DNA of 64,000 bases from NCBI GenBank assembly GCA_015272515.1, contig JACYLN010000024.1:78073-142072 (forward strand), read 5' to 3'. Source of the stretch: Leptolyngbyaceae cyanobacterium C42_A2020_001. GTDB taxonomy: Bacteria > Cyanobacteriota > Cyanobacteriia > Leptolyngbyales > Leptolyngbyaceae. This document shows, piece after piece, positions 17,537-26,068 of the stretch; position 1 is the first letter of the stretch, and each line of letters begins with the position of its first letter. Both the position numbers and the translations under genes were made by a program. The notes under the pieces were generated by a model that saw only the letters and a program-made list of their open reading frames with translations, did no database searches and had not been told where the DNA came from.

Positions 17537-18331
17537 TTATGCCAAATTTAGAGCTAATTGAAGTTGGGGTTTGGCATTGGATTGAGGGACAGGGGTAGGG
17601 TTTGCCGTGACAGCGGGGCAGTAGCGGGCAAAGGTGCAGCGATGACACTGCTTTCCCTGTTTTGGCTCCCAGCCGCGATCGTGGCGTAATCGCACAGCCA
17701 GATCCCCAATAATTTCCTGCACTTCTTCTTGATGCTCTTGTGCTGCCCGAAACTGAACTTTTTCCCCTGTTCGCAAAAACAGCAAACTGAGATATTTCAA
17801 ACTTTGGCGATAGGTTTGTTCTAAAGCGAGGTAATACAGCCCAATCTGAATGTCGATTTCGGATGTTTCTGGCAGTTTCATTTCCCGTCCAGATTTGTAG
17901 TCAATCAACTCCAGCCCATCACTCAAAAAATCAATTCGGTCGTAGCGCCCAACAAGCGTAAACTCCAAATTTTCAACTTGCAAATACCCCTGAATTTTGC
18001 CCTCCACTGCAAGCGGTTGGTTTAACGCTGGCTCGTTGGCAATAAAACGCCAGTAGTAGCGCTCCAAAATCTCTCTTCCTTCGGCTATCTGCGTATGGCT
18101 CAAGCCATCGGTGTGGGTATCCCAGCAGCGATAAATCCACTGAATATCAGGAACAGGATAGCGGTAGTGCCAATCTCGATGACATTGAGCCAGTGCTTGA
18201 TGCAGGGCATTTCCCAAAGCCGCAGACCCATAGAATTCAGTGCTGGTTAACTTACGCTCATAGCGCAGGTAGTAAGCGTAGGGACAGCGATGATATGCCT
18301 GAAGTTTGGTCGCCGAAATTTGGTACGTCAT
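17537..18331 (-). CDS. Stand-alone PD-(D/E)XK nuclease (AddB/Cas4-like) with a putative Fe-S cluster
   Basis: ISATKLQAYHRCP, GNALHQAL, GRYDRID...LIDYKSG, QIGLY and C-terminal CHRCTFARYC. Confidence 0.85.
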   Translation of the reverse strand: MTYQISATKLQAYHRCPYAYYLRYERKLTSTEFYGSAALGNALHQALAQCHRDWHYRYPVPDIQWIYRCWDTHTDGLSHTQIAEGREILERYYWRFIANEPALNQPLAVEGKIQGYLQVENLEFTLVGRYDRIDFLSDGLELIDYKSGREMKLPETSEIDIQIGLYYLALEQTYRQSLKYLSLLFLRTGEKVQFRAAQEHQEEVQEIIGDLAVRLRHDRGWEPKQGKQCHRCTFARYCPAVTANPTPVPQSNAKPQLQLALNLA

Positions 18332-18413
18332 AACTCAGGGGAAGGGGATTAGGGTTTAGGGGTTGGGGGAGGAAGAAGAATCATGCCTTCTGCCTCCTGC
18401 CTTCGCCTTTGTT

Positions 18414-18644
18414 TTAGTTCTGTGCGATTGGGCGTTTGAATAATGCATCCAGATAAATGCGAGAAGCCTGACGATGATTCAGTTTTTCGGGTGCGGCTTC
18501 GGACTGGTTTTGCAACAAGAACAGGGAGAGAGCAGCGGTAATCACCCGATCTTGATCCCAGTCGGGGCGCATTTCTAAATAGCTTCTAAGAGACTCGTGC
18601 AGAATTTCGGGAACTTCTACCAAAAGGCTCACAGTGGTATCCAT
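18414..18644 (-). CDS. DUF2811 family small protein, copy 1
   Basis: VSLLVEVPEILHESLRSYLE...WDQDRVITAALSLFLLQN...YLDALF. Confidence 0.85.
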   Translation of the reverse strand: MDTTVSLLVEVPEILHESLRSYLEMRPDWDQDRVITAALSLFLLQNQSEAAPEKLNHRQASRIYLDALFKRPIAQN

Positions 18645-18802
18645 AGAATTTAGGCTCTGGAAAATAAATGAACTAGCAGGCGCGATCGCATCTCAACGGC
18701 AAAGCCACTGTGCCTCACAGCAAATTTGATTTCCCAAACGGCTCAAAGCCTTGTGGAATATCGTTTGTGGAGACTCAGCTAACGACTTATGTTGGTCGCA
18801 TC

Positions 18803-18831
18803 ATTCTCAGTCGAATTTCATCGCTTGTCAA
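18803..18831 (-). promoter_or_regulatory. Candidate sigma70 promoter of DUF2811 copy 1
   Basis: Minus strand reads TTGACA-17 nt-GAGAAT. A direct repeat TGTTGCGA (18832-18839 and 18842-18849) abuts the -35 element. Confidence 0.4.
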
Positions 18832-18974
18832 TGTTGCGAACTGTTGCGAGACGTTTTAGATCAAAAAAAGCTTTACGAGAGAATCGGCATTTGAGGGCAT
18901 TTTTGTTTACTTAACTTCACAAAAACTTGCTTTCAAGCGTTACGTAACCGGGAAAAATCGAAAGTCATCAAGGG

Positions 18975-19100
18975 TGTGGAAAAGTCCCATTCTGTCGTGG
19001 CGCTTGTGGAAAACAAGAAAAAAAGTGTGGAAAACGTGTGGAGAGGGTGTGGAAAAGGACAGATTTTACTGTGGAAAGAGTGTGGATTTTCTGGGGAAAA
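18975..19100. promoter_or_regulatory. Array of 8 co-oriented DnaA-box-like 9-mers (TGTGGAAAA = TTTTCCACA on the minus strand)
   Basis: Boxes start at 18975, 19005, 19026, 19037, 19048, 19070, 19081 and 19092; four are perfect TGTGGAAAA. Confidence 0.75.
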
Positions 19101-19137
19101 ACAAGGCAATTACTAATTTTTGTAAATTTCTAGAATT

Positions 19138-19214
<77 letters not shown>

Positions 19215-19363
19215 AGAAGGATTTTAGATTACAGACTAAGTAGACGAGTCAGGAGTGACCAATTCCCGATTACCAACTACCGATTACTATTGCTAATCAC
19301 TCATCATCAATCTCCAATCCCCAACTCTCACTTTCCTCACCTTCCCCATCTTCACCACCTTCC

Positions 19364-20806
19364 CTATTCTCCGTCGCTGCCTGCCTTCTGCCGCTGATAG
19401 TGTTCCTTAAAAAGCCGTTGCTGAATGCTGTGATCGACGATCGCGTCTGGGTAGCCGCAGCGATCGCGTTCAAAAGACGAGATCTTACCGGAAACCAACT
19501 CTTCAGTATCAACGCTGCGAAGTTCGGGTAGCCACTCGCGGATGTATTCTGCTTCTGGGTCAAATTTCTTTGCCTGGCTGGCTGGGTTGAAGATGCGGAG
19601 GGGTTTGGGGTCCATGCCACTGGATGTGCTCCATTGCCAGCCACCGTTGTTGGCAGAAAGGTCACCATCAATTAGCTTTTGCATGAAGTACTTTTCCCCC
19701 AAACGACCATCTACCAGCAAGTCTTTTGTGAGGAAACTGGCGACAATCATGCGGCAGCGGTTATGCATCCAGCCAATTTCGTTCATCTGGCGCATGGCTG
19801 CATCCACAATGGGGTAACCTGTTCGCCCTTCGCACCAGGCTTGAAACAAGTCATCCTGGTTTGACCAGGGAAAGTTTTTGAAGGGTTGGCGGTAGGGTCC
19901 GTCTGCCAGTTCTGGAAAGAAGAATAGGGCGTGTTGATAAAACTCCCGCCATGCCAGTTCTTGTTGCCAGGTGCGGATGCTGGCGCGGGCTTCGTCGCTG
20001 CGGGTCTGCTCCATTGCCTGGAGGGTGGCTGCCCAAACGGTACGAATCCCGATCGCGCCAAATTTTAGGGCTGCACTGAGTTGGGAGGTGCCGGGATGGG
20101 CGGGAAAGTTGCGTTGTTCTTGATAATCTGTGATGGCGCGATCGCAAAACTCGGCTAACTTCTCGGATGCGCCTGCTTCTCCGGGTTCAATGACCAGGGG
20201 TGTTGTCCGAACAAAGCCCAAATCTTTTGCGGTGGGTAATTCAATGGCTCCTGCTGCACGAGCTAATTCCTGTTCTTTCTCGGTAAGACCGCTTGCCTGG
20301 GTTAGCGTTGCAGCGGGTTTAGCTTTGGCTTTGCTGCTCCAGTTGCGCCAGAAGGGGGTGTAAACCGTGTAGGGTTGTCCTGCTCCGGTGGTAACTTCTT
20401 GGGGGGCATGGAGGAGTTGATCCCAGAAGGGACAGACTTCGATCCCCTGTTCCCGTAAAGCGGCGGCAACGGTGCGATCGCGCGCTCTGCCATACGGCTC
20501 CACATCCTGATTCAGAAAAACGGCTTTGGCATTTAGCGCCGTTGCCAGCTTCACAATTCCCTGGTCGGGCGTTGCCTGCAAAATTAACAGTTGACTGCCT
20601 ACCTCGGCGTATCGTGCTTGCAGCGCTTGCAAACAGCTAATCATATACGTAACTCGTGCCGGAGCCACATCATCTCGCTGCAAAATGTTGGGGTCGAGAC
20701 AAAACACACCCACCACTTTGGGGCTGCGCTGGCGGGCAGCGGCTAGCCCCACGTTGTCTGAAATGCGTAAGTCGCGTCGATGCCAAAATAGAATCAAATC
20801 AGCCAT
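19364..20806 (-). CDS. phrB: Deoxyribodipyrimidine photolyase (class I CPD photolyase)
   Basis: [55 protein letters not shown] and NNGGWQW. Start placed at ATG 20806. Confidence 0.93.
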
Positions 20807-20984
20807 GATCATGCCAAAAACCTGTGCTGTAGCCATCCTAATGCCTTTAAGGTAGAGGCGTTTGCGATTCTATGGCTCGGCTTTTGGGTGTAACTTGATG
20901 GCAGGTGTGGGCTTCGACGTGAGCGTCTCGACGGTGAGGCTCGACAGAACCGCTCAGCCGAACGGGTATGGGGTGTAGGGCGGT

Positions 20985-21539
20985 TTAATTGGGTTGGAGG
21001 AAGGGGCGCGCCAGCATGAAGCTACAAATGGATTTTGCGTCGGATAATTCACCGGAGTAGATGGCGCTTTCCACTTCTTGCGGAGTCATTAATACTACGC
21101 TGAGATCTTCATCAATATCTTGTTCAGGTGGGTTTTCTAGCAGTTCTAGATCCTGAGCAAGAAAGGCGTAAATAATTTCGTCGGAGTAACCTGGAGCAAC
21201 AAAGAACTCGCCTAATTTCTGCCAGCGATCGCTGCGGTAACCTGTCTCTTCTTCAATTTCGCGTTTAATAGTTTCTTCGGGGCTTTCATCCAGCTCAATG
21301 GTGCCAGCCGGAAATTCCAGGATGCGGCCCCGTGCCGTAAAGCGATATTGCCGAATCAACACTAGCTTCCCTTCTGGAGTAACTGGAACTGCCAGCGCTC
21401 CACCAGGATGGCGCACACATTCCCATTCACCTTCTGCTTTGTTGGGCAGGCGCAAGCGATTGGCTTCAAACGCAAATTTGCGACCCCGATAGAGAAACCG
21501 TTGTTTCAGCAGTTGGGGCGGTTCGGGACCAAAGGGCAT
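20985..21539 (-). CDS. NUDIX hydrolase (ADP-ribose pyrophosphatase-like)
   Basis: Nudix box EFPAGTIELDESPEETIKREIEEETG. Start placed at ATG 21539. Confidence 0.9.
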   Translation of the reverse strand: MPFGPEPPQLLKQRFLYRGRKFAFEANRLRLPNKAEGEWECVRHPGGALAVPVTPEGKLVLIRQYRFTARGRILEFPAGTIELDESPEETIKREIEEETGYRSDRWQKLGEFFVAPGYSDEIIYAFLAQDLELLENPPEQDIDEDLSVVLMTPQEVESAIYSGELSDAKSICSFMLARPFLQPN

Positions 21540-21670
21540 AGAGAAAGAGAGTAAGGGGTAAGGGGTGACGGGCGGTAAGGACAATGAAAAATTCAAAATG
21601 TAAAATTAAAAGTGGCAAAGCCGTACTGGGAAGCATTTTGAACTTCTAATTTTTAACTTTTCATTTTGAC

Positions 21671-22174
21671 CTAAGTGTGACTTACCTGCTGAACTTCTGA
21701 ACAGTCTACCGCTTGAAGCAGTTGGGCGATCGCTTTTCTGGAAGTTGGCTCTACCCAATCAGGGGCAATTTCTGCCAGGGGCACCAGCACAAAGGCGCGG
21801 TCTGCCATGCGGGGATGGGGGATTTGCAGGGTTGGTGTGTTGAGGATCAGGTCATCGAACAGCAACATATCCAGATCCAGGGTGCGCGGTCCCCAGCGTT
21901 CTCGCCGCACTCGTCCAAACTGTTTTTCTACCGCAAGCAGGGTTTCTAACAGCATGTGGGGAGGCAGGGTAGTTTGCACGATGATGCAGCCATTGAGATA
22001 GTCAGGCTGGGGTGGGCCTACGGCTTTGGTTTGATACCAGTGAGATCGCGCTTCTAAATGAATGGCGGGCGATCGCGCCAGGATAGCAACGGCTGCTTCC
22101 AGGGTGTGTAAAGAGTCGCCAAGATTGCTGCCCAGAGCGATCGCGCAACGGCTCACGGGGTCATCTGCACCCAT
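21671..22174 (-). CDS. folK: 2-amino-4-hydroxy-6-hydroxymethyldihydropteridine diphosphokinase
   Basis: IALGSNLGD, YLNG, RWGPRTLDLDML, PHPRMADRAFVLVPL. Confidence 0.96.
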   Translation of the reverse strand: MGADDPVSRCAIALGSNLGDSLHTLEAAVAILARSPAIHLEARSHWYQTKAVGPPQPDYLNGCIIVQTTLPPHMLLETLLAVEKQFGRVRRERWGPRTLDLDMLLFDDLILNTPTLQIPHPRMADRAFVLVPLAEIAPDWVEPTSRKAIAQLLQAVDCSEVQQVSHT

Positions 22175-22175
22175 G

Positions 22176-23516
22176 TCACACTTTGCTGGGACGCTGAATG
22201 ATCTGTTCTCCCACGCGGCGGCGATCGCTGGAGTTAATTTCTACAATTCGGACATAGCTGCGGGGATATTCTTCTAAGCAGGATTCCAACGCGTGCAGGG
22301 CGATCGCGCCGTCTCCATCGTAGGTGCCGTAACTGTTCCAGGAGCCAGTGCGGAAGCGGCGTTCATCCACGTGTTCAATGCCTAGACGATGCCCCTGCCT
22401 GAGAATCCGATTGGCTTGGGTCACAATGTCTGGAGTCAGGCGAGTACTGGCGGGTTGTCCGGGGTAGCTACTGGCGGGTGGAGGTGGAGCTGGATGAGAT
22501 TGCCCGTTGTTTTTCGCTGCTTCGGTTGGGGGAGCGCTTTTAGATCGGTAGGTGCGGAAAAAATCGCTGGAAGAGTCGTGGGTACTTTCCTGTTTGAGCG
22601 GAAGGGCAGAATCCGTTTCTCCCAGGCGGCGATTGTAGAGAAATTTGTTGTATTCCTGCGCCAAGCCGCTTTCCTGCACCCGTTTTTGTTCCTGCACCAT
22701 CTGGTTGCCCATTTCAATTAGGTGCGGCAGGCTGAAGTCAGGTTTTTTGAATTCGGGAGGCGCTTCTTTGCTGTTGACCACGCGCTGAGATACGCGCTCA
22801 AACCCAACGGCGTGAATAAAGTCGCGAATTTGCTCATCAAACAGGCGCGATCGCAGCGCTCCAAAAAAGTCGATCGCTTGAGTGGGGAAGGTATCAACCA
22901 ATTTTTCGATGTCAGAGTGGGCAATTTGATCCACCTGAAAAATCCCTGCCACAATGCCGATGCGATCGTCCCGACTGGGTTCCCAGTAAAACTTTTCCAT
23001 CCGCCCATCCCGCACCAGCGGTTGATACAGGGTTGAAAAATCGTTTCCAGTGACGATGATGGGGATGCGCTGAATTGGTTCTGAGTCGTAACTGCCGGGA
23101 AGCTGGACATTGGTGGGATTGTCGGCAATGTTCATCAAGGTGCCATTGACCAACTGCGTGTTGACGGTATATTGCGTGTATTGGTCTACGCGTCCGGCTC
23201 CCGCATCAATATCATTAATCATCAAGGCTGCCATCTTGCCACGCACTTTCACCAGTTCCGCTGCTTCTCGATAGCGTAGGCGAATCAGGCGGGCAGGGTC
23301 TCCCGCATCTGGGCTTTCCAGTTCCCCAGCAGACATATGCACCACGTTTATGCCCATGCGCTCAAACGCAAGTTCGCACTGAAAGGATTTGCCTTCGCCT
23401 TTACGCCCATGCACCCCCAAGATGAGCGGCACTTTCATGTTGGGTAAGTCCAGATAATTTTTGGTGATGTGGACCGCGATTTTGTCTAAAAAGCGGGGCG
23501 AAATGTAGAAACTCAT
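22176..23516 (-). CDS. rca: Rubisco activase-like AAA+ protein with a C-terminal RbcS-like (SSUL) domain
   Basis: VPLILGVHGRKGEGKSFQ, ELESPDAGDPARLIR, NDIDAG, DGRMEK, then a linker and the SSUL domain (IEHVDERRFRTGSW...EYPRSYVRIVEI). Confidence 0.92.
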   Translation of the reverse strand: MSFYISPRFLDKIAVHITKNYLDLPNMKVPLILGVHGRKGEGKSFQCELAFERMGINVVHMSAGELESPDAGDPARLIRLRYREAAELVKVRGKMAALMINDIDAGAGRVDQYTQYTVNTQLVNGTLMNIADNPTNVQLPGSYDSEPIQRIPIIVTGNDFSTLYQPLVRDGRMEKFYWEPSRDDRIGIVAGIFQVDQIAHSDIEKLVDTFPTQAIDFFGALRSRLFDEQIRDFIHAVGFERVSQRVVNSKEAPPEFKKPDFSLPHLIEMGNQMVQEQKRVQESGLAQEYNKFLYNRRLGETDSALPLKQESTHDSSSDFFRTYRSKSAPPTEAAKNNGQSHPAPPPPASSYPGQPASTRLTPDIVTQANRILRQGHRLGIEHVDERRFRTGSWNSYGTYDGDGAIALHALESCLEEYPRSYVRIVEINSSDRRRVGEQIIQRPSKV

Positions 23517-23561
23517 AATCTGTGTCGATTGCTCTCAGTCTGGATTGCTTTCAATCCATTA

Positions 23562-24446
23562 TCATTTGTCTTTCTGCACTATGGGATTGATCAAGTCGCT
23601 TAGCCCTTCACCCAACAGGGACAATCCTGTCACCATCAGAGTCATCGCCAGCCCCGGAAAGAGCGTCGTCCACCAAACATCGCCTGTGGAAAGCCCATCC
23701 AGCGCTTGCTTCAAATCGTGTCCCCATTCGGGGGTTTCTTCCGGCAAGCCCAAGCCCAAAAAACCCAACCCACCCAGAATCAGAATAGCATCGGCAATGT
23801 TGAGCGTGAGCAGCACGGGCACACTCTGCACCACGTTGAGAAATAGATAGCGCGTCATCACTCGCCAGGTGGAAGCTCCGATCGCCTGTGCCGCTTCAAC
23901 AAATAACTCATTTTTAACGCTCACGGTTTGGTTGCGAACCAGGCGAAAGTATTGGGGAATGTAAGCAATACTGAGGGCGATCGCCGCATTCAACACGCCA
24001 CGTCCCAACACAAACGCCAGCGTTACTGCAATCAGCAATGTGGGCAGCGTAAACACCGCATCCATCAAAAACACCAGTACCCGGTCTAATCTGCCGCCCA
24101 AATAACCACTCACCATTCCCAGCGGCACCCCTACCCCCAAGCTAAAAAAGGTCGCCAGGATGACCACTAGCCATGCCGCCTGACTACCAAACACGGTGCG
24201 AGAGAACACATCGTAGCCCAGCCGCGTGGTGCCAAACCAGTGCTGCCAGGACGGAGATTGCTGGGGCGGATGATCCAAAAACTCTGTGGGGTCTTGTAGC
24301 CAACCAAGATGCTGAAACAGTGGTGCCAGAAGGGCGATCGCAGCAAAAAACAGGGTGATGATTAACCCAATCCGCGTTAGCCACCCAGATAAATCCCGCT
24401 GGTTAGAAGAACGAAAAAATTGGGCGATCGGCAGGCGCAGCGTCAT
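23562..24446 (-). CDS. Peptide/nickel ABC transporter permease (DppC/OppC-like)
   Basis: HWFGTTRLGYDVFSRT and EAA motif FVEAAQAIGAS. Start placed at ATG 24446, just after the hemJ stop. Confidence 0.9.
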   Translation of the reverse strand: MTLRLPIAQFFRSSNQRDLSGWLTRIGLIITLFFAAIALLAPLFQHLGWLQDPTEFLDHPPQQSPSWQHWFGTTRLGYDVFSRTVFGSQAAWLVVILATFFSLGVGVPLGMVSGYLGGRLDRVLVFLMDAVFTLPTLLIAVTLAFVLGRGVLNAAIALSIAYIPQYFRLVRNQTVSVKNELFVEAAQAIGASTWRVMTRYLFLNVVQSVPVLLTLNIADAILILGGLGFLGLGLPEETPEWGHDLKQALDGLSTGDVWWTTLFPGLAMTLMVTGLSLLGEGLSDLINPIVQKDK

Positions 24447-24447
24447 C

Positions 24448-25056
24448 TTACCCCGGTTGAGCCGAGCTTTCAGAGCTGGCAGCATCAATCGCCGTACCCA
24501 ATTCAGATGCCATGCGCTCTTTATCCAAACGGCGCTTGCGGGCATAAAGCTGAATCGCTGCTGCCATGCCCACCACCATTGCCGCAATCAGCCAGGTTGC
24601 CGCATCGGTCGGGAAATTATTCTTAAACACTGCCAGCATCACAACCGCGACGAACAGCACGGTAGGAAATTCATTGAACCAGCGGAATTGCTGCCCGGTC
24701 ATGCGGCACTCATCAGCCGCCAGCTTTTTCATGATGCGTTTGCAGTAGTGATGATATCCCACTAGCAAGACAACAAATGCCAGTTTGATGTGCATCCAGG
24801 GTTGCTTCAAAACATCGGGTTCCGTGATTACTAGCCCGATCGCCATGGCGATCGTCAGCAGCATCGCCGGAGTCATGATGATGCTATAGAGCCGCTTCTC
24901 CATGACCTGGTATTGATTTTTCAATACAGTGCGGGCAGGTTCCGGTTGCTCATAGGCTTCGGCATGATAAACAAACAGCCGAGGTAGATAAAACATGCCC
25001 GCAAACCAACACACAATGCCGACGATGTGAAATGCTTTGAACCAATAATAAGCCAT
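24448..25056 (-). CDS. hemJ: Protoporphyrinogen IX oxidase HemJ
   Basis: WFKAFHIVGIVCWFAGMFYLPRLFVYH, MEKRLYSIIMTPAM, WMHIKL, RWFNEFPT. Confidence 0.95.
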   Translation of the reverse strand: MAYYWFKAFHIVGIVCWFAGMFYLPRLFVYHAEAYEQPEPARTVLKNQYQVMEKRLYSIIMTPAMLLTIAMAIGLVITEPDVLKQPWMHIKLAFVVLLVGYHHYCKRIMKKLAADECRMTGQQFRWFNEFPTVLFVAVVMLAVFKNNFPTDAATWLIAAMVVGMAAAIQLYARKRRLDKERMASELGTAIDAASSESSAQPG

Positions 25057-25251
25057 GTGAAACCCTCTTATAAATTGGAGATTTTTAGGATTTTAGATGG
25101 AATGAATCTGGAGAGACGGGGATGGGGTACGAGGTATAGGGTGGTATTAACCACAGGATTTGAACCTGTGCAAACCCGATCATGCCTTATTAGAGAACAC
25201 TTTGGCGAAATGTATTGAAATCTAAAATCTAAAATCTCTCATGCTTAAATC

Positions 25252-25452
25252 CTAAGCGGGCTGCTTGAACAGGCTATCGAGATAGACCTGGGCTGCATGG
25301 CGATCGCACCCCCCATTTTGCAGCAGAAACAGAGACACCGCCGCCGAAAATAAGCGGTCTTGGTCCCAATCCGCATGAGAGTCTAAGTAGCGCGAGACTG
25401 AGTCATAGAGTTCTTCAGGGATTTCTGCCAGGATGCTAACGGTAATGTTCAT
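25252..25452 (-). CDS. DUF2811 family small protein, copy 2
   Basis: MNITVSILAEIPEELYDSVSRYLD...WDQDRLFSAAVSLFLLQN...YLDSLF. True start is probably ATG 25452, not 25635. Confidence 0.85.
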   Translation of the reverse strand: MNITVSILAEIPEELYDSVSRYLDSHADWDQDRLFSAAVSLFLLQNGGCDRHAAQVYLDSLFKQPA

Positions 25453-25664
25453 GCGAACCTCTAGTGCTGAACAAGTGAACTGAACAAAATGGACTGAAAC
25501 GCTTTGCAATACACCCTGTTGAAAACCGCAGAGGTGGGTAACCGACAACGATAGAAGCTGGCTTGCAAATCGCTGCTGTTCTCCTGGTGCTGCCCTCATT
25601 ACCTGCACCTGCTGATGCGAAATCAGCCGATGCAAACACGAGCATTGCGGAGGTAAGTCGCCTC

Positions 25665-25694
25665 ATTTTGTCCAGCCCGAGGCTAAGTTGTCAA
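25665..25694 (-). promoter_or_regulatory. Candidate sigma70 promoter of DUF2811 copy 2
   Basis: Minus strand reads TTGACA-18 nt-CAAAAT. Confidence 0.35.
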
Positions 25695-25868
25695 CGGAGT
25701 GAAAATGCGTAGTGTGAGGCTGGGGGAAACACCTGCTTATGAAAGAATCGGGGTTTGAATGCGATCCCCGTTACATATCTCAATATTCTTGAAATGGTTT
25801 CTGCCTGGGACATTATGCTATCCCGATACTGCTCAAAACCCCCCGAACGTCCATTTCTCGTTCTCCCC

Positions 25869-25953
25869 TGTGGAAAACTCTTTAAAACCTGTGGAAAAAA
25901 TTGGGGAAATCTGTGGAAAGTTTGTGGAAACTCTGTGGAATGCGTGGGGAAAA
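25869..25953. promoter_or_regulatory. Second array of 7 co-oriented DnaA-box-like 9-mers
   Basis: Boxes start at 25869, 25890, 25902, 25912, 25923, 25934 and 25945; two are perfect TGTGGAAAA. Confidence 0.75.
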
Positions 25954-26068
25954 TTGAGGTAAAGGATAAGAATTGCAAAAATATTGAACACCACTAAATC
26001 TGGAAATCTTTTTTAGTAGAAAAGCTTTGACAACTTGCTTAAACCAGTCGCATGAAGATTTAATCTCT

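What the first reader, a model, noticed from the sequence alone, without database searches (positions are those of the whole stretch)
18975..19135. DnaA-box-like array 1: eight boxes in helical phase followed by an AT-rich segment
Seen in sequence: start-to-start spacings are 30, 21, 11, 11, 22, 11 and 11 bp, so most boxes fall on one face of the helix. AT-rich AATTACTAATTTTTGTAAATTTCTAGAATT follows, and a perfect palindrome GTTACGTAAC lies at 18939-18948. Inference: this is the geometry expected for cooperative filament assembly next to an unwinding element, as in oriC.
Basis: partly seen in the sequence, partly recalled or inferred. Interest (0 to 1): 0.65.

Follow-up and report, generated by a model that had tools for sequence, protein, structure and literature searches.

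The report
Conserved DnaA-box array upstream of DUF2811
The eight phased DnaA-binding motifs are real, but they are most likely not the replication origin: they belong to an ancient control region in front of a small unknown cyanobacterial gene (DUF2811), and the boxes or the whole cassette are gone in the genomes sampled that lack DnaA.

Summary
Eight co-oriented boxes of the cyanobacterial DnaA-box type (TGTGGAAAA, the complement of TTTTCCACA) lie at 18975-19100 with the stated spacings, followed by an AT-rich block. This is the strongest of only five such clusters in the 5.55-Mb genome.

The oriC reading is not supported:
- A textbook origin unwinding module (box pair, GC spacer, CTA x3, AT-rich) sits directly upstream of dnaN on another contig (C49).
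- In array 1 the AT-rich block is on the wrong side of the boxes for that module.
- The array occurs twice here, each time upstream of one of the genome's two DUF2811 genes.

In 45 of 51 DUF2811 loci from diverse cyanobacteria, at least 2 sense-oriented boxes (21-22 bp apart) precede the gene. The last box usually ends 173-175 bp, or 143 bp, before a highly conserved -35.

Across 78 genomes, all 73 with dnaA have DUF2811. Four of the five without dnaA lack the whole cassette. The fifth keeps the gene, promoter and AT motif but has lost every box.

Best reading: a non-origin DnaA-sensing control element for the DUF2811 promoter. DnaA binding is inferred, not shown.

This scan found the same cassette earlier on other DNA (four follow-ups).

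The parts
18975..19100 (-). Array 1: eight DnaA-box-like 9-mers. They read TTTTCCACA in the sense of the DUF2811 gene (TGTGGAAAA on the + strand) and start at 18975, 19005, 19026, 19037, 19048, 19070, 19081 and 19092. Four are perfect, two have 1 mismatch and two are weak.
   Evidence: Box positions are 99% identical to the congener against 65% outside them.
19103..19137 (-). Distal AT-rich block. It holds a degenerate copy (AAGGCAATTACTAATTTTT on the + strand) of the conserved module motif TTTTTGYAATTCTTAT.
   Evidence: The motif is kept in the dnaA-less genome G074.
18832..18974 (-). 143-bp spacer between the promoter-proximal box and the -35. It contains the conserved block AAGTTAAGTAAACAAAAATGCCCTCAAATGCCGATTCTCTCGTAAAG (gene sense) and the non-conserved palindrome GTTACGTAAC at 18939-18948.
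   Evidence: No consensus RNA structure was found in the equivalent spacer of the 173-175-bp-class loci on either strand.
18803..18831 (-). Predicted sigma-70-type promoter of DUF2811 copy 1: -35 TTGACA at 18831-18826, 17-bp spacer, -10 GAGAAT at 18808-18803.
   Evidence: It is the homologue of the highly conserved AACATTTCGCAGCATTGACAA...CACAAT block in other cyanobacteria. No transcription start data were available.
18414..18644 (-). DUF2811 gene, copy 1 (76 aa).
   Evidence: Pfam PF10929, E = 2.3e-24, 85.9 bits against a cut-off of 26.6.
25869..25953 (-). Array 2: seven boxes starting at 25869, 25890, 25902, 25912, 25923, 25934 and 25945, with spacings of 21, 12, 10, 11, 11 and 11 bp.
   Evidence: Box positions are 90% identical to the congener against 69% outside.
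25966..25982 (-). Conserved distal AT motif of module 2 (GATAAGAATTGCAAAAA on the + strand, the complement of TTTTTGCAATTCTTATC).
25689..25694 (-). The -35 TTGACA of module 2. It lies 174 bp from the end of the proximal box, which is the modal distance in other cyanobacteria.
25252..25452 (-). DUF2811 gene, copy 2 (66 aa).
   Evidence: Pfam PF10929, E = 6e-27. It is 94% identical to the protein of Leptolyngbyaceae cyanobacterium JSC-12.

Best explanation
Array 1 is the DnaA-binding part of an ancient, self-contained control cassette for a small gene of unknown function, DUF2811. It is not a replication origin.

Read in the sense of the gene, the cassette has these parts in order:
1. A conserved AT-rich motif (TTTTTGYAATTCTTAT).
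2. A run of co-oriented TTTTCCACA boxes on a 21-22-bp (here partly 11-bp) lattice, so that all boxes face one side of the helix.
3. A spacer of fixed length with several conserved blocks.
4. A very conserved promoter (TTGACA, 17 bp, CACAAT-like).
5. A leader of variable length, then the gene.

Proposed mechanism (inferred): DnaA, probably as a cooperative oligomer that first fills the strong boxes and then the weak ones, assembles on the array. From a fixed helical phase it sets the activity of the DUF2811 promoter, so that DUF2811 output reports the level or nucleotide state of DnaA. Because DUF2811 is absent in four of the five dnaA-less genomes sampled, its product probably acts in a DnaA-linked process such as control of replication initiation or chromosome copy number.

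Shown here: the sequence architecture, its conservation, its fixed geometry, and its covariation with dnaA.
Not shown: DnaA binding, the sign of regulation, and what DUF2811 does.
For: 1. The motif is the experimentally supported cyanobacterial DnaA box (PMC4674748).
2. Both arrays in the window lie upstream of the only two DUF2811 genes in the genome. The two modules align block by block.
3. Over 51 DUF2811 loci from many families there are 153 sense and 18 antisense boxes in the 600 bp upstream, against 4 and 5 in a downstream control. 45 of 51 loci have at least 2 sense boxes, and the spacing is 21-22 bp in 82 of 102 pairs.
4. The last box ends 173-175 bp before the -35 in most loci (174 in module 2). 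A minority, including module 1, have 143 bp, about three helical turns fewer. The -35-to-ATG distance varies from 90 to 644 bp. The array is therefore tied to the promoter.
5. Flanking genes are not conserved, and the paralogs in picocyanobacteria each carry boxes.
6. Natural experiment: the dnaA-less genome G074 keeps the AT motif, promoter and gene but has lost every TCCACA core. Two congeners that have dnaA keep 3-4 boxes.
7. Across 78 Cyanophyceae the counts are: dnaA+/DUF2811+ 73, dnaA+/DUF2811- 0, dnaA-/DUF2811+ 1, dnaA-/DUF2811- 4.
8. Box positions are 99% and 90% identical between congeners, against 65% and 69% outside the boxes.
9. There is no Rfam match and no consensus RNA structure in the spacer, which fits constraint at the DNA level.
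Against: - No binding, expression or transcription-start data exist for this locus.
- The boxes lie 143-174 bp upstream of the -35, which is far for a simple activator or repressor. It requires looping, wrapping or an architectural partner.
- The dnaA-loss evidence rests on about three independent lineages: the f14 clade, G071 and G074.
- In one genus (g10; L043, L055) all boxes are the weaker TTTCCCCA variant.
- The DUF2811 structure model was unusable (pLDDT 57.6), so the protein's role is open.
- A titration or inactivation role for the array is not excluded and could coexist with regulation.
Confidence: 0.62

Rival explanations
1. The array is a DnaA reservoir or DnaA-inactivating (or reactivating) locus, comparable to E. 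coli datA or DARS or to the B. subtilis DnaA-box clusters. It would titrate DnaA or change its nucleotide state, perhaps with an architectural protein on the adjacent AT motif. Its position next to DUF2811 would be secondary, or DUF2811 would be the partner protein. This could coexist with promoter control.
For: It is one of very few box clusters outside the origin, and the strongest in the genome. The boxes are phased with alternating strong and weak sites. A conserved AT-rich motif directly flanks the boxes. The boxes are lost when dnaA is lost.
Against: A pure titration site would not need a fixed 174/143-bp, phase-preserving distance to one promoter, nor a fixed orientation relative to one gene across the class. 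Arrays in many species have only 2-4 boxes, which gives a small titration capacity. The AT motif persists without dnaA, so it does not serve DnaA alone.
Confidence: 0.2
2. The array is a chromosomal replication origin (oriC or a secondary origin). The AT-rich block would be the unwinding element.
For: There is a dense, phased DnaA-box array next to AT-rich DNA. Some cyanobacteria replicate from multiple or unusual sites (PMC7198777).
Against: The origin unwinding module is found upstream of dnaN on C49 and in other genomes, but not here in the right polarity. There are two copies in this genome. In the complete congener they lie 1.7 and 1.9 Mb from dnaN, and in other complete genomes 0.1-0.9 Mb from dnaN, with up to three copies. 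There is no GC-skew extremum. Genes on both sides of array 1 point the same way. The geometry is fixed relative to a promoter.
Confidence: 0.04
3. The repeats are bound by a different protein, for example DUF2811 itself or another regulator, and resemble DnaA boxes only by coincidence.
For: No binding data exist. The weak sites TCCCCA, TGTGGAGAG and TGTGGATTT are conserved, which could reflect another protein's preference.
Against: The consensus equals the validated DnaA box and the boxes of the dnaN-linked origins in the same genomes. The boxes vanish in the one genome that lost dnaA but kept DUF2811 and its promoter, which argues against DUF2811 as the binder. In one lineage (L045) the array uses TTATCCACA, another DnaA-box form.
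Confidence: 0.07

Closest known systems
Non-origin DnaA-box clusters and DnaA-regulated promoters of Bacillus subtilis. Eight intergenic regions were found by ChIP-chip (Ishikawa et al. 2007, as cited in PMC7198777). The promoter of sda, which encodes a small checkpoint protein, is the closest analogue; that comparison rests on my own knowledge.
   Same: Several consensus DnaA boxes lie in an intergenic region far from oriC, upstream of a small gene. This gives DnaA a role as transcription factor and sensor of replication status.
   Different: Here the cassette is conserved across nearly a whole class, with a fixed 174/143-bp distance to the -35, one orientation and a 22-bp lattice. The target is an uncharacterised family. 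DnaA binding is untested. The target gene was absent from four of the five dnaA-less genomes sampled.
E. coli datA and DARS1/DARS2 (from my own knowledge).
   Same: These are clusters of DnaA boxes outside oriC, flanked by a site for an architectural protein, and they act on the DnaA pool.
   Different: Neither has a fixed relation to a neighbouring promoter. Their box orientations are mixed, whereas all boxes here are co-oriented. No partner protein or effect on DnaA-ATP is known here.
The oriC basal unwinding system: DnaA-box pair, spacer, DnaA-trios and AT-rich DNA (PMC8287927, PMC6669920).
   Same: DnaA boxes of the same consensus, phased, with AT-rich DNA nearby.
   Different: There are no trios in the required polarity, the AT-rich block is on the opposite side, the site is not next to dnaN or dnaA, and it is multi-copy. 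The genome has a proper unwinding module at dnaN on C49.
Caulobacter DnaA-activated hdaA promoter, a feedback loop in which the initiator induces its own inactivator (from my own knowledge).
   Same: It is a possible logic for the cassette: DnaA controls a gene whose product acts back on DnaA.
   Different: This is purely an analogy. DUF2811 is unrelated to Hda in sequence, and no interaction with DnaA is known.

Membership tests
Chromosomal origin (oriC) with basal unwinding system | Cluster of DnaA boxes matching the species consensus | tested here: met
   Four perfect boxes, two with one mismatch and two weak ones at 18975-19100.
Chromosomal origin (oriC) with basal unwinding system | A box (or tandem pair), a spacer of 16 nt or less, at least 3 DnaA-trios 3' of the TTATCCACA-oriented box, then AT-rich DNA (rule in PMC8287927) | tested here: not met
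   The own dnaN-linked region (C49), L031 and L032 each give a box pair, CTA x3 and a tail that is 67-93% AT. Array 2 gives nothing. Array 1 gives only loose matches inside T-runs between boxes, with a 47-50% AT tail. The AT-rich block lies on the 5' side of the boxes.
Chromosomal origin (oriC) with basal unwinding system | Next to dnaN or dnaA, as in most cyanobacteria (55 of 68 species next to dnaN, PMC4674748) | tested here: not met
   dnaN is on C49 and dnaA on C97, while the array is on C70. In the complete congener the modules lie 1.68 and 1.88 Mb from dnaN.
Chromosomal origin (oriC) with basal unwinding system | Compositional skew turning point or divergent gene orientation at the site | tested here: not met
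   No extremum of cumulative GC skew at C70 positions 97 or 104 kb. Genes on both sides of array 1 are on the minus strand. Skew is weak in many cyanobacteria, so this is soft evidence.
Chromosomal origin (oriC) with basal unwinding system | DnaA-dependent unwinding or autonomous replication | not testable with these tools
   This needs P1/KMnO4 footprinting or a minichromosome test.
Non-origin DnaA-box cluster / DnaA-regulated promoter | Several consensus boxes in an intergenic region away from the origin | tested here: met
Non-origin DnaA-box cluster / DnaA-regulated promoter | Fixed position and orientation relative to a promoter or gene across species | tested here: met
   45 of 51 loci have at least 2 sense boxes. 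The last box ends 173-175 bp (mode) or 143 bp before the -35.
Non-origin DnaA-box cluster / DnaA-regulated promoter | Dependence on DnaA (tested here only through phyletic covariation) | tested here: met
   The boxes are lost in dnaA-less G074, while the gene and promoter are kept. The whole cassette is absent from the four other dnaA-less genomes and from none of the 73 that have dnaA.
Non-origin DnaA-box cluster / DnaA-regulated promoter | DnaA occupancy in vivo and an effect on transcription | not testable with these tools
   No ChIP or expression data were found.
datA-like DnaA-inactivating locus | An architectural-protein site adjacent to essential boxes | tested here: inconclusive
   A conserved AT-rich motif lies 22 bp before the first strong box. 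Its binding factor is unknown.
datA-like DnaA-inactivating locus | Stimulates DnaA-ATP hydrolysis or alters initiation timing | not testable with these tools
   This needs biochemistry or genetics.
DUF2811 (PF10929), the gene served by the array | Profile match above the curated cut-off | tested here: met
   85.9 and 94.2 bits against a cut-off of 26.6.

The most novel reading that the evidence does not exclude
The cassette is a feedback circuit on the replication initiator that spans nearly all photosynthetic cyanobacteria. DnaA oligomerises on the phased boxes at a fixed helical phase from a highly conserved promoter and controls a small protein, DUF2811. That protein in turn acts on DnaA or on replication initiation or chromosome copy number. 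It would be a functional counterpart of Sda, Hda or YabA, for which I know of no recognised cyanobacterial counterpart. This would explain two things: why dnaA is kept in species that replicate without it, and why DUF2811 or its boxes are missing wherever dnaA is missing in the genomes sampled.
Probability: 0.3. Interest if true: 0.8.

Novelty: new variant of a known kind. Interest (0 to 1): 0.6.

Why it matters
What DnaA does in cyanobacteria that replicate without it (Synechocystis 6803, Nostoc 7120, Synechococcus 7002) is stated as an open question (PMC7198777). This cassette offers one concrete, near-universal candidate target outside oriC. It comes with a testable geometry and with a partner gene whose presence tracks dnaA.

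It also has a practical consequence. Origin predictors that rely on DnaA-box density can pick this array instead of the true origin. Here it outscores the dnaN-linked cluster.

No paper in the searched library mentions DUF2811.

Tried and rejected
- Rfam scans of both modules found nothing at E of 1 or less.
- RNAalifold on 25 diverse spacers, both strands, gave no consensus structure, with energy 0. I therefore dropped a structured RNA as the reason for conservation.
- AlphaFold2 on a 39-sequence DUF2811 alignment gave pLDDT 57.6 and pTM 0.35. That is too poor for a fold search, so none was run. My impression of a ribbon-helix-helix-like strand-helix-helix pattern is untested.
- A profile search against PDB sequences gave only insignificant Cas2 hits, with E = 0.3 and 1.5.
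- I looked for cassette remnants in the four genomes that lack both dnaA and DUF2811. There were none. One hit with 3 mismatches lies inside an unrelated coding region, and the reversed-pattern control hit equally often.
- Conserved neighbour genes were rejected. The nuclease, photolyase and GHL10 neighbours appear in none of the 50 other loci, and HemJ appears in 4.
- A divergent promoter in the AT motif was considered from the sequence alone and set aside. There is no convincing -35 and no conserved product beyond it.
- The palindrome GTTACGTAAC is not conserved in other loci.
- Literature searches for DnaA ChIP-seq in cyanobacteria found nothing on this locus. A 2026 network-inference preprint lists DnaA as a hub, but none of the passages shown by a search for 'DnaA' in it names this gene.

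Full report
**What is in the sequence**

The window comes from a cyanobacterium. Its DUF2811 proteins are 94% identical to those of Leptolyngbyaceae cyanobacterium JSC-12.

On the + strand, 9-mers with a TGTGGA or TGGGGA core start at 18975, 19005, 19026, 19037, 19048, 19070, 19081 and 19092. Four are perfect TGTGGAAAA and two have one mismatch. TGTGGAAAA is the complement of TTTTCCACA, the published species-specific DnaA box of cyanobacteria, for which DnaA domain IV binding has been shown in vitro (PMC4674748).

**Is it more than chance?**

The 5.55-Mb genome holds 90 perfect boxes on both strands. Only five clusters of at least 3 boxes with 1 mismatch or fewer exist, plus one low-scoring mixed-strand group:
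- The two in this window, which rank first and second.
- One directly upstream of dnaN (C49).
- One downstream of guaA (C82).
- One between ppk and a sigma-factor gene (C89).

In a congener at about 78% DNA identity, box positions of array 1 are 71/72 identical against 77/119 outside the boxes. For array 2 the figures are 57/63 against 54/78. The boxes, including the weak ones, are under purifying selection.

**Why it is most likely not oriC**

- dnaN lies on contig C49 and dnaA on C97.
- Upstream of dnaN the genome has boxes on both strands, ending in TTTTCCACA-gt-TTCCACA, cgct, CTA CTA CTA, then TTTTAAATAAGTTTTTCTTAAG. The same arrangement is found upstream of dnaN in two other cyanobacterial genomes (L031, L032). 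It matches the basal unwinding system rule: a box, a spacer of 16 nt or less, at least three trios, then AT-rich DNA (PMC8287927).
- Applying that rule to the two arrays gives nothing for array 2. For array 1 it gives only trivial matches in T-runs between boxes, with a tail that is not AT-rich.
- Cumulative GC skew on C70 wanders, with no extremum at the arrays.
- Genes on both sides of array 1 are on the same strand.

**What the array belongs to**

Array 1 lies about 330 bp upstream of a minus-strand 76-aa gene (18414-18644). A second array (25869-25953) lies about 420 bp upstream of a 66-aa paralog (25252-25452). Both genes are DUF2811 (PF10929) and are the only two in the genome. The two upstream regions align block by block.

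DUF2811 was found in 74 of 78 photosynthetic cyanobacterial genomes sampled. It was found above the family's score cut-off in none of the other lineages of the phylum.

I examined 51 loci: 30 fetched automatically, 19 of 20 picked across other families, and the two here.
- The 600 bp upstream of the gene hold 153 sense-oriented boxes (1 mismatch or fewer) and 18 antisense. A 600-bp downstream control holds 4 and 5.
- 45 of 51 loci have at least two sense boxes.
- Neighbouring boxes are 21-22 bp apart in 82 of 102 cases and 11 bp apart in 7.

**The cassette and its geometry**

A consensus from 29 loci reads, in gene sense:
1. TTTTTGyAATTCTTAT.
2. TTTTCCnCA..ATTCCACAg.gTTTCCACAgg, then about 13 variable bases, then gTTTTCCACAg.
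3. ACGA.
4. CTGGGGATT.
5. actgagttttTaT.AAGttatGTAACaAAAA.
6. AAccCt.ATTaTttCGT.
7. TAAcATTTCGCAgCATTGACAAaCCcaCCCC...cgcACAATGaTgCGaC.

The last block is a sigma-70-type promoter. In module 1 it was also picked up by the promoter scan, as TTGACA, 17 bp, GAGAAT at 18831-18803.

The end of the last box lies 173-175 bp from the -35 in most loci, and 174 bp in module 2. A minority have 143 bp, among them module 1. The difference of 31 bp is about three helical turns, so the rotational phase is kept. The distance from the -35 to the start codon ranges from 90 to 644 bp. The array is therefore coupled to the promoter, not to the coding sequence or to neighbouring genes, which are not conserved.

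The spacer has no Rfam match and no consensus RNA fold on either strand. This points to constraint at the DNA level.

**Link to DnaA**

dnaA was found in 398 of 401 high-quality genomes of the class. Further checks on individual genomes complete the table for the 78 genomes also scored for DUF2811:

| | DUF2811 present | DUF2811 absent |
|---|---|---|
| dnaA present | 73 | 0 |
| dnaA absent | 1 (G074) | 4 (G071, G077, G178, G198) |

The four genomes that lack both show no remnant of the conserved promoter. They represent about two independent losses: a Nostocaceae-family genome, and a clade consistent with the dnaA-negative Cyanobacterium/Geminocystis group described in PMC7198777. The counts therefore overstate the statistics.

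The fifth dnaA-less genome, G074, is the most telling. It keeps the AT motif, the ACTGAGTTT...AAGT block, the promoter (1 mismatch) and the gene. The segment between them is 68 bp shorter and contains no TCCACA core at all. Two congeners that have dnaA keep three or four boxes. This is what is expected if the boxes exist for DnaA and the rest of the cassette does not.

**Position in complete genomes**

- In the single-contig congener the two modules lie at 1.17 and 4.73 Mb, and dnaN at 3.05 Mb.
- In five other genomes assembled in one to seven contigs the DUF2811 loci lie 0.1-0.9 Mb from dnaN.
- One small genome has three copies.

**Mechanism, with status of each step**

- Shown: the architecture, conservation, geometry and covariation with dnaA.
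- Inferred: DnaA binds the array cooperatively on one face of the helix and, from a fixed phase 143 or 174 bp upstream, modulates the DUF2811 promoter, possibly with a protein on the AT motif. DUF2811 works in a DnaA-linked process.
- Unknown: whether regulation is positive or negative, and what the protein does. The structure model was too poor to use and PDB sequence matches were insignificant.
- Not excluded: a datA-like titration or inactivation role, which may coexist with promoter control.

**Relation to what is known**

DnaA acting at box clusters outside oriC is established in other bacteria and is proposed, without targets, for cyanobacteria (PMC7198777). No paper in the library mentions DUF2811, and searches for cyanobacterial DnaA ChIP-seq or regulon work found nothing on this locus.

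This scan reached the same general reading four times before on other DNA (e1-4465326, e1-3080260, e1-2920245, e1-3132972). I re-derived it independently before seeing those notes. Their short texts do not mention the unwinding-module polarity test against the genome's own dnaN origin, the 174/143-bp phase rule, the congener box-versus-spacer comparison, the dnaA/DUF2811 co-occurrence table or the box loss in a dnaA-less genome.

**Limits**

- Genome handles are anonymous, so organism names for the sampled genomes are guesses, except where proteins carried source names.

Noticed in passing
window 19138-19213 (also 18343-18369 and 18384-18402); L002, L006, L007, L025 and L054 just distal of the AT motif: Heptamer tandem repeats lie directly beyond the AT-rich end of the cassette. 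Here the unit is AGGAGTC, with 10.9 copies. Tandem repeats with different short units sit at the same relative place in at least five other cyanobacterial loci. This may only reflect how common such repeats are in intergenic DNA of filamentous cyanobacteria.
   Followed up: no
G000 contigs C82:19998-20058 and C89:93249-93289: There are two further DnaA-box clusters outside the origin. One has three perfect boxes (21 and 31 bp apart) just downstream of guaA. The other has three boxes between ppk and a sigma-70-family gene, 115-155 bp upstream of the sigma gene and antisense to it. Whether they are conserved was not checked.
   Followed up: no
G000 C97, about 450 bp upstream of the dnaA open frame: A single perfect TGTGGAAAA box and one TCCACA core lie upstream of dnaA. 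They are possible autoregulation sites.
   Followed up: no
window 18414-25953 versus G381:C1 at 1.17 Mb and 4.73 Mb (L057, L056): The two DUF2811 cassettes are 6.9 kb apart here but 3.56 Mb apart in the complete congener. A rearrangement has therefore joined or separated them. Past array 2 the neighbour differs: GHL10/SLH here and a different gene in the congener.
   Followed up: partly
L019 (G164:C1, about 1.80 Mb): An insertion of about 450 bp sits between the conserved promoter and the DUF2811 start codon, giving 644 bp from the -35 to the ATG. Its nature (mobile element or RNA) is unknown.
   Followed up: no
L045 (G134), L043 and L055 (genus g10): There are lineage-specific box dialects. 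One array uses TTATCCACA/TTATCCCCA at 10-11-bp spacing with seven or more boxes. In another genus every box is the weaker TTTCCCCA form.
   Followed up: no
Literature: PMC4674748: That paper reports an Ori-Finder 'oriC' of Thermosynechococcus elongatus BP-1 with 12 DnaA boxes, bordered on both sides by genes of unknown function rather than by dnaN. It may be a DUF2811 cassette mistaken for the origin.
   Followed up: no
window 17537-18331: A PD-(D/E)XK (Cas4/RecB-like) nuclease gene lies 82 bp downstream of DUF2811 copy 1 on the same strand, and a photolyase gene lies upstream of the array. This pairing is shared with the congener but with none of the 50 other loci.
   Followed up: partly
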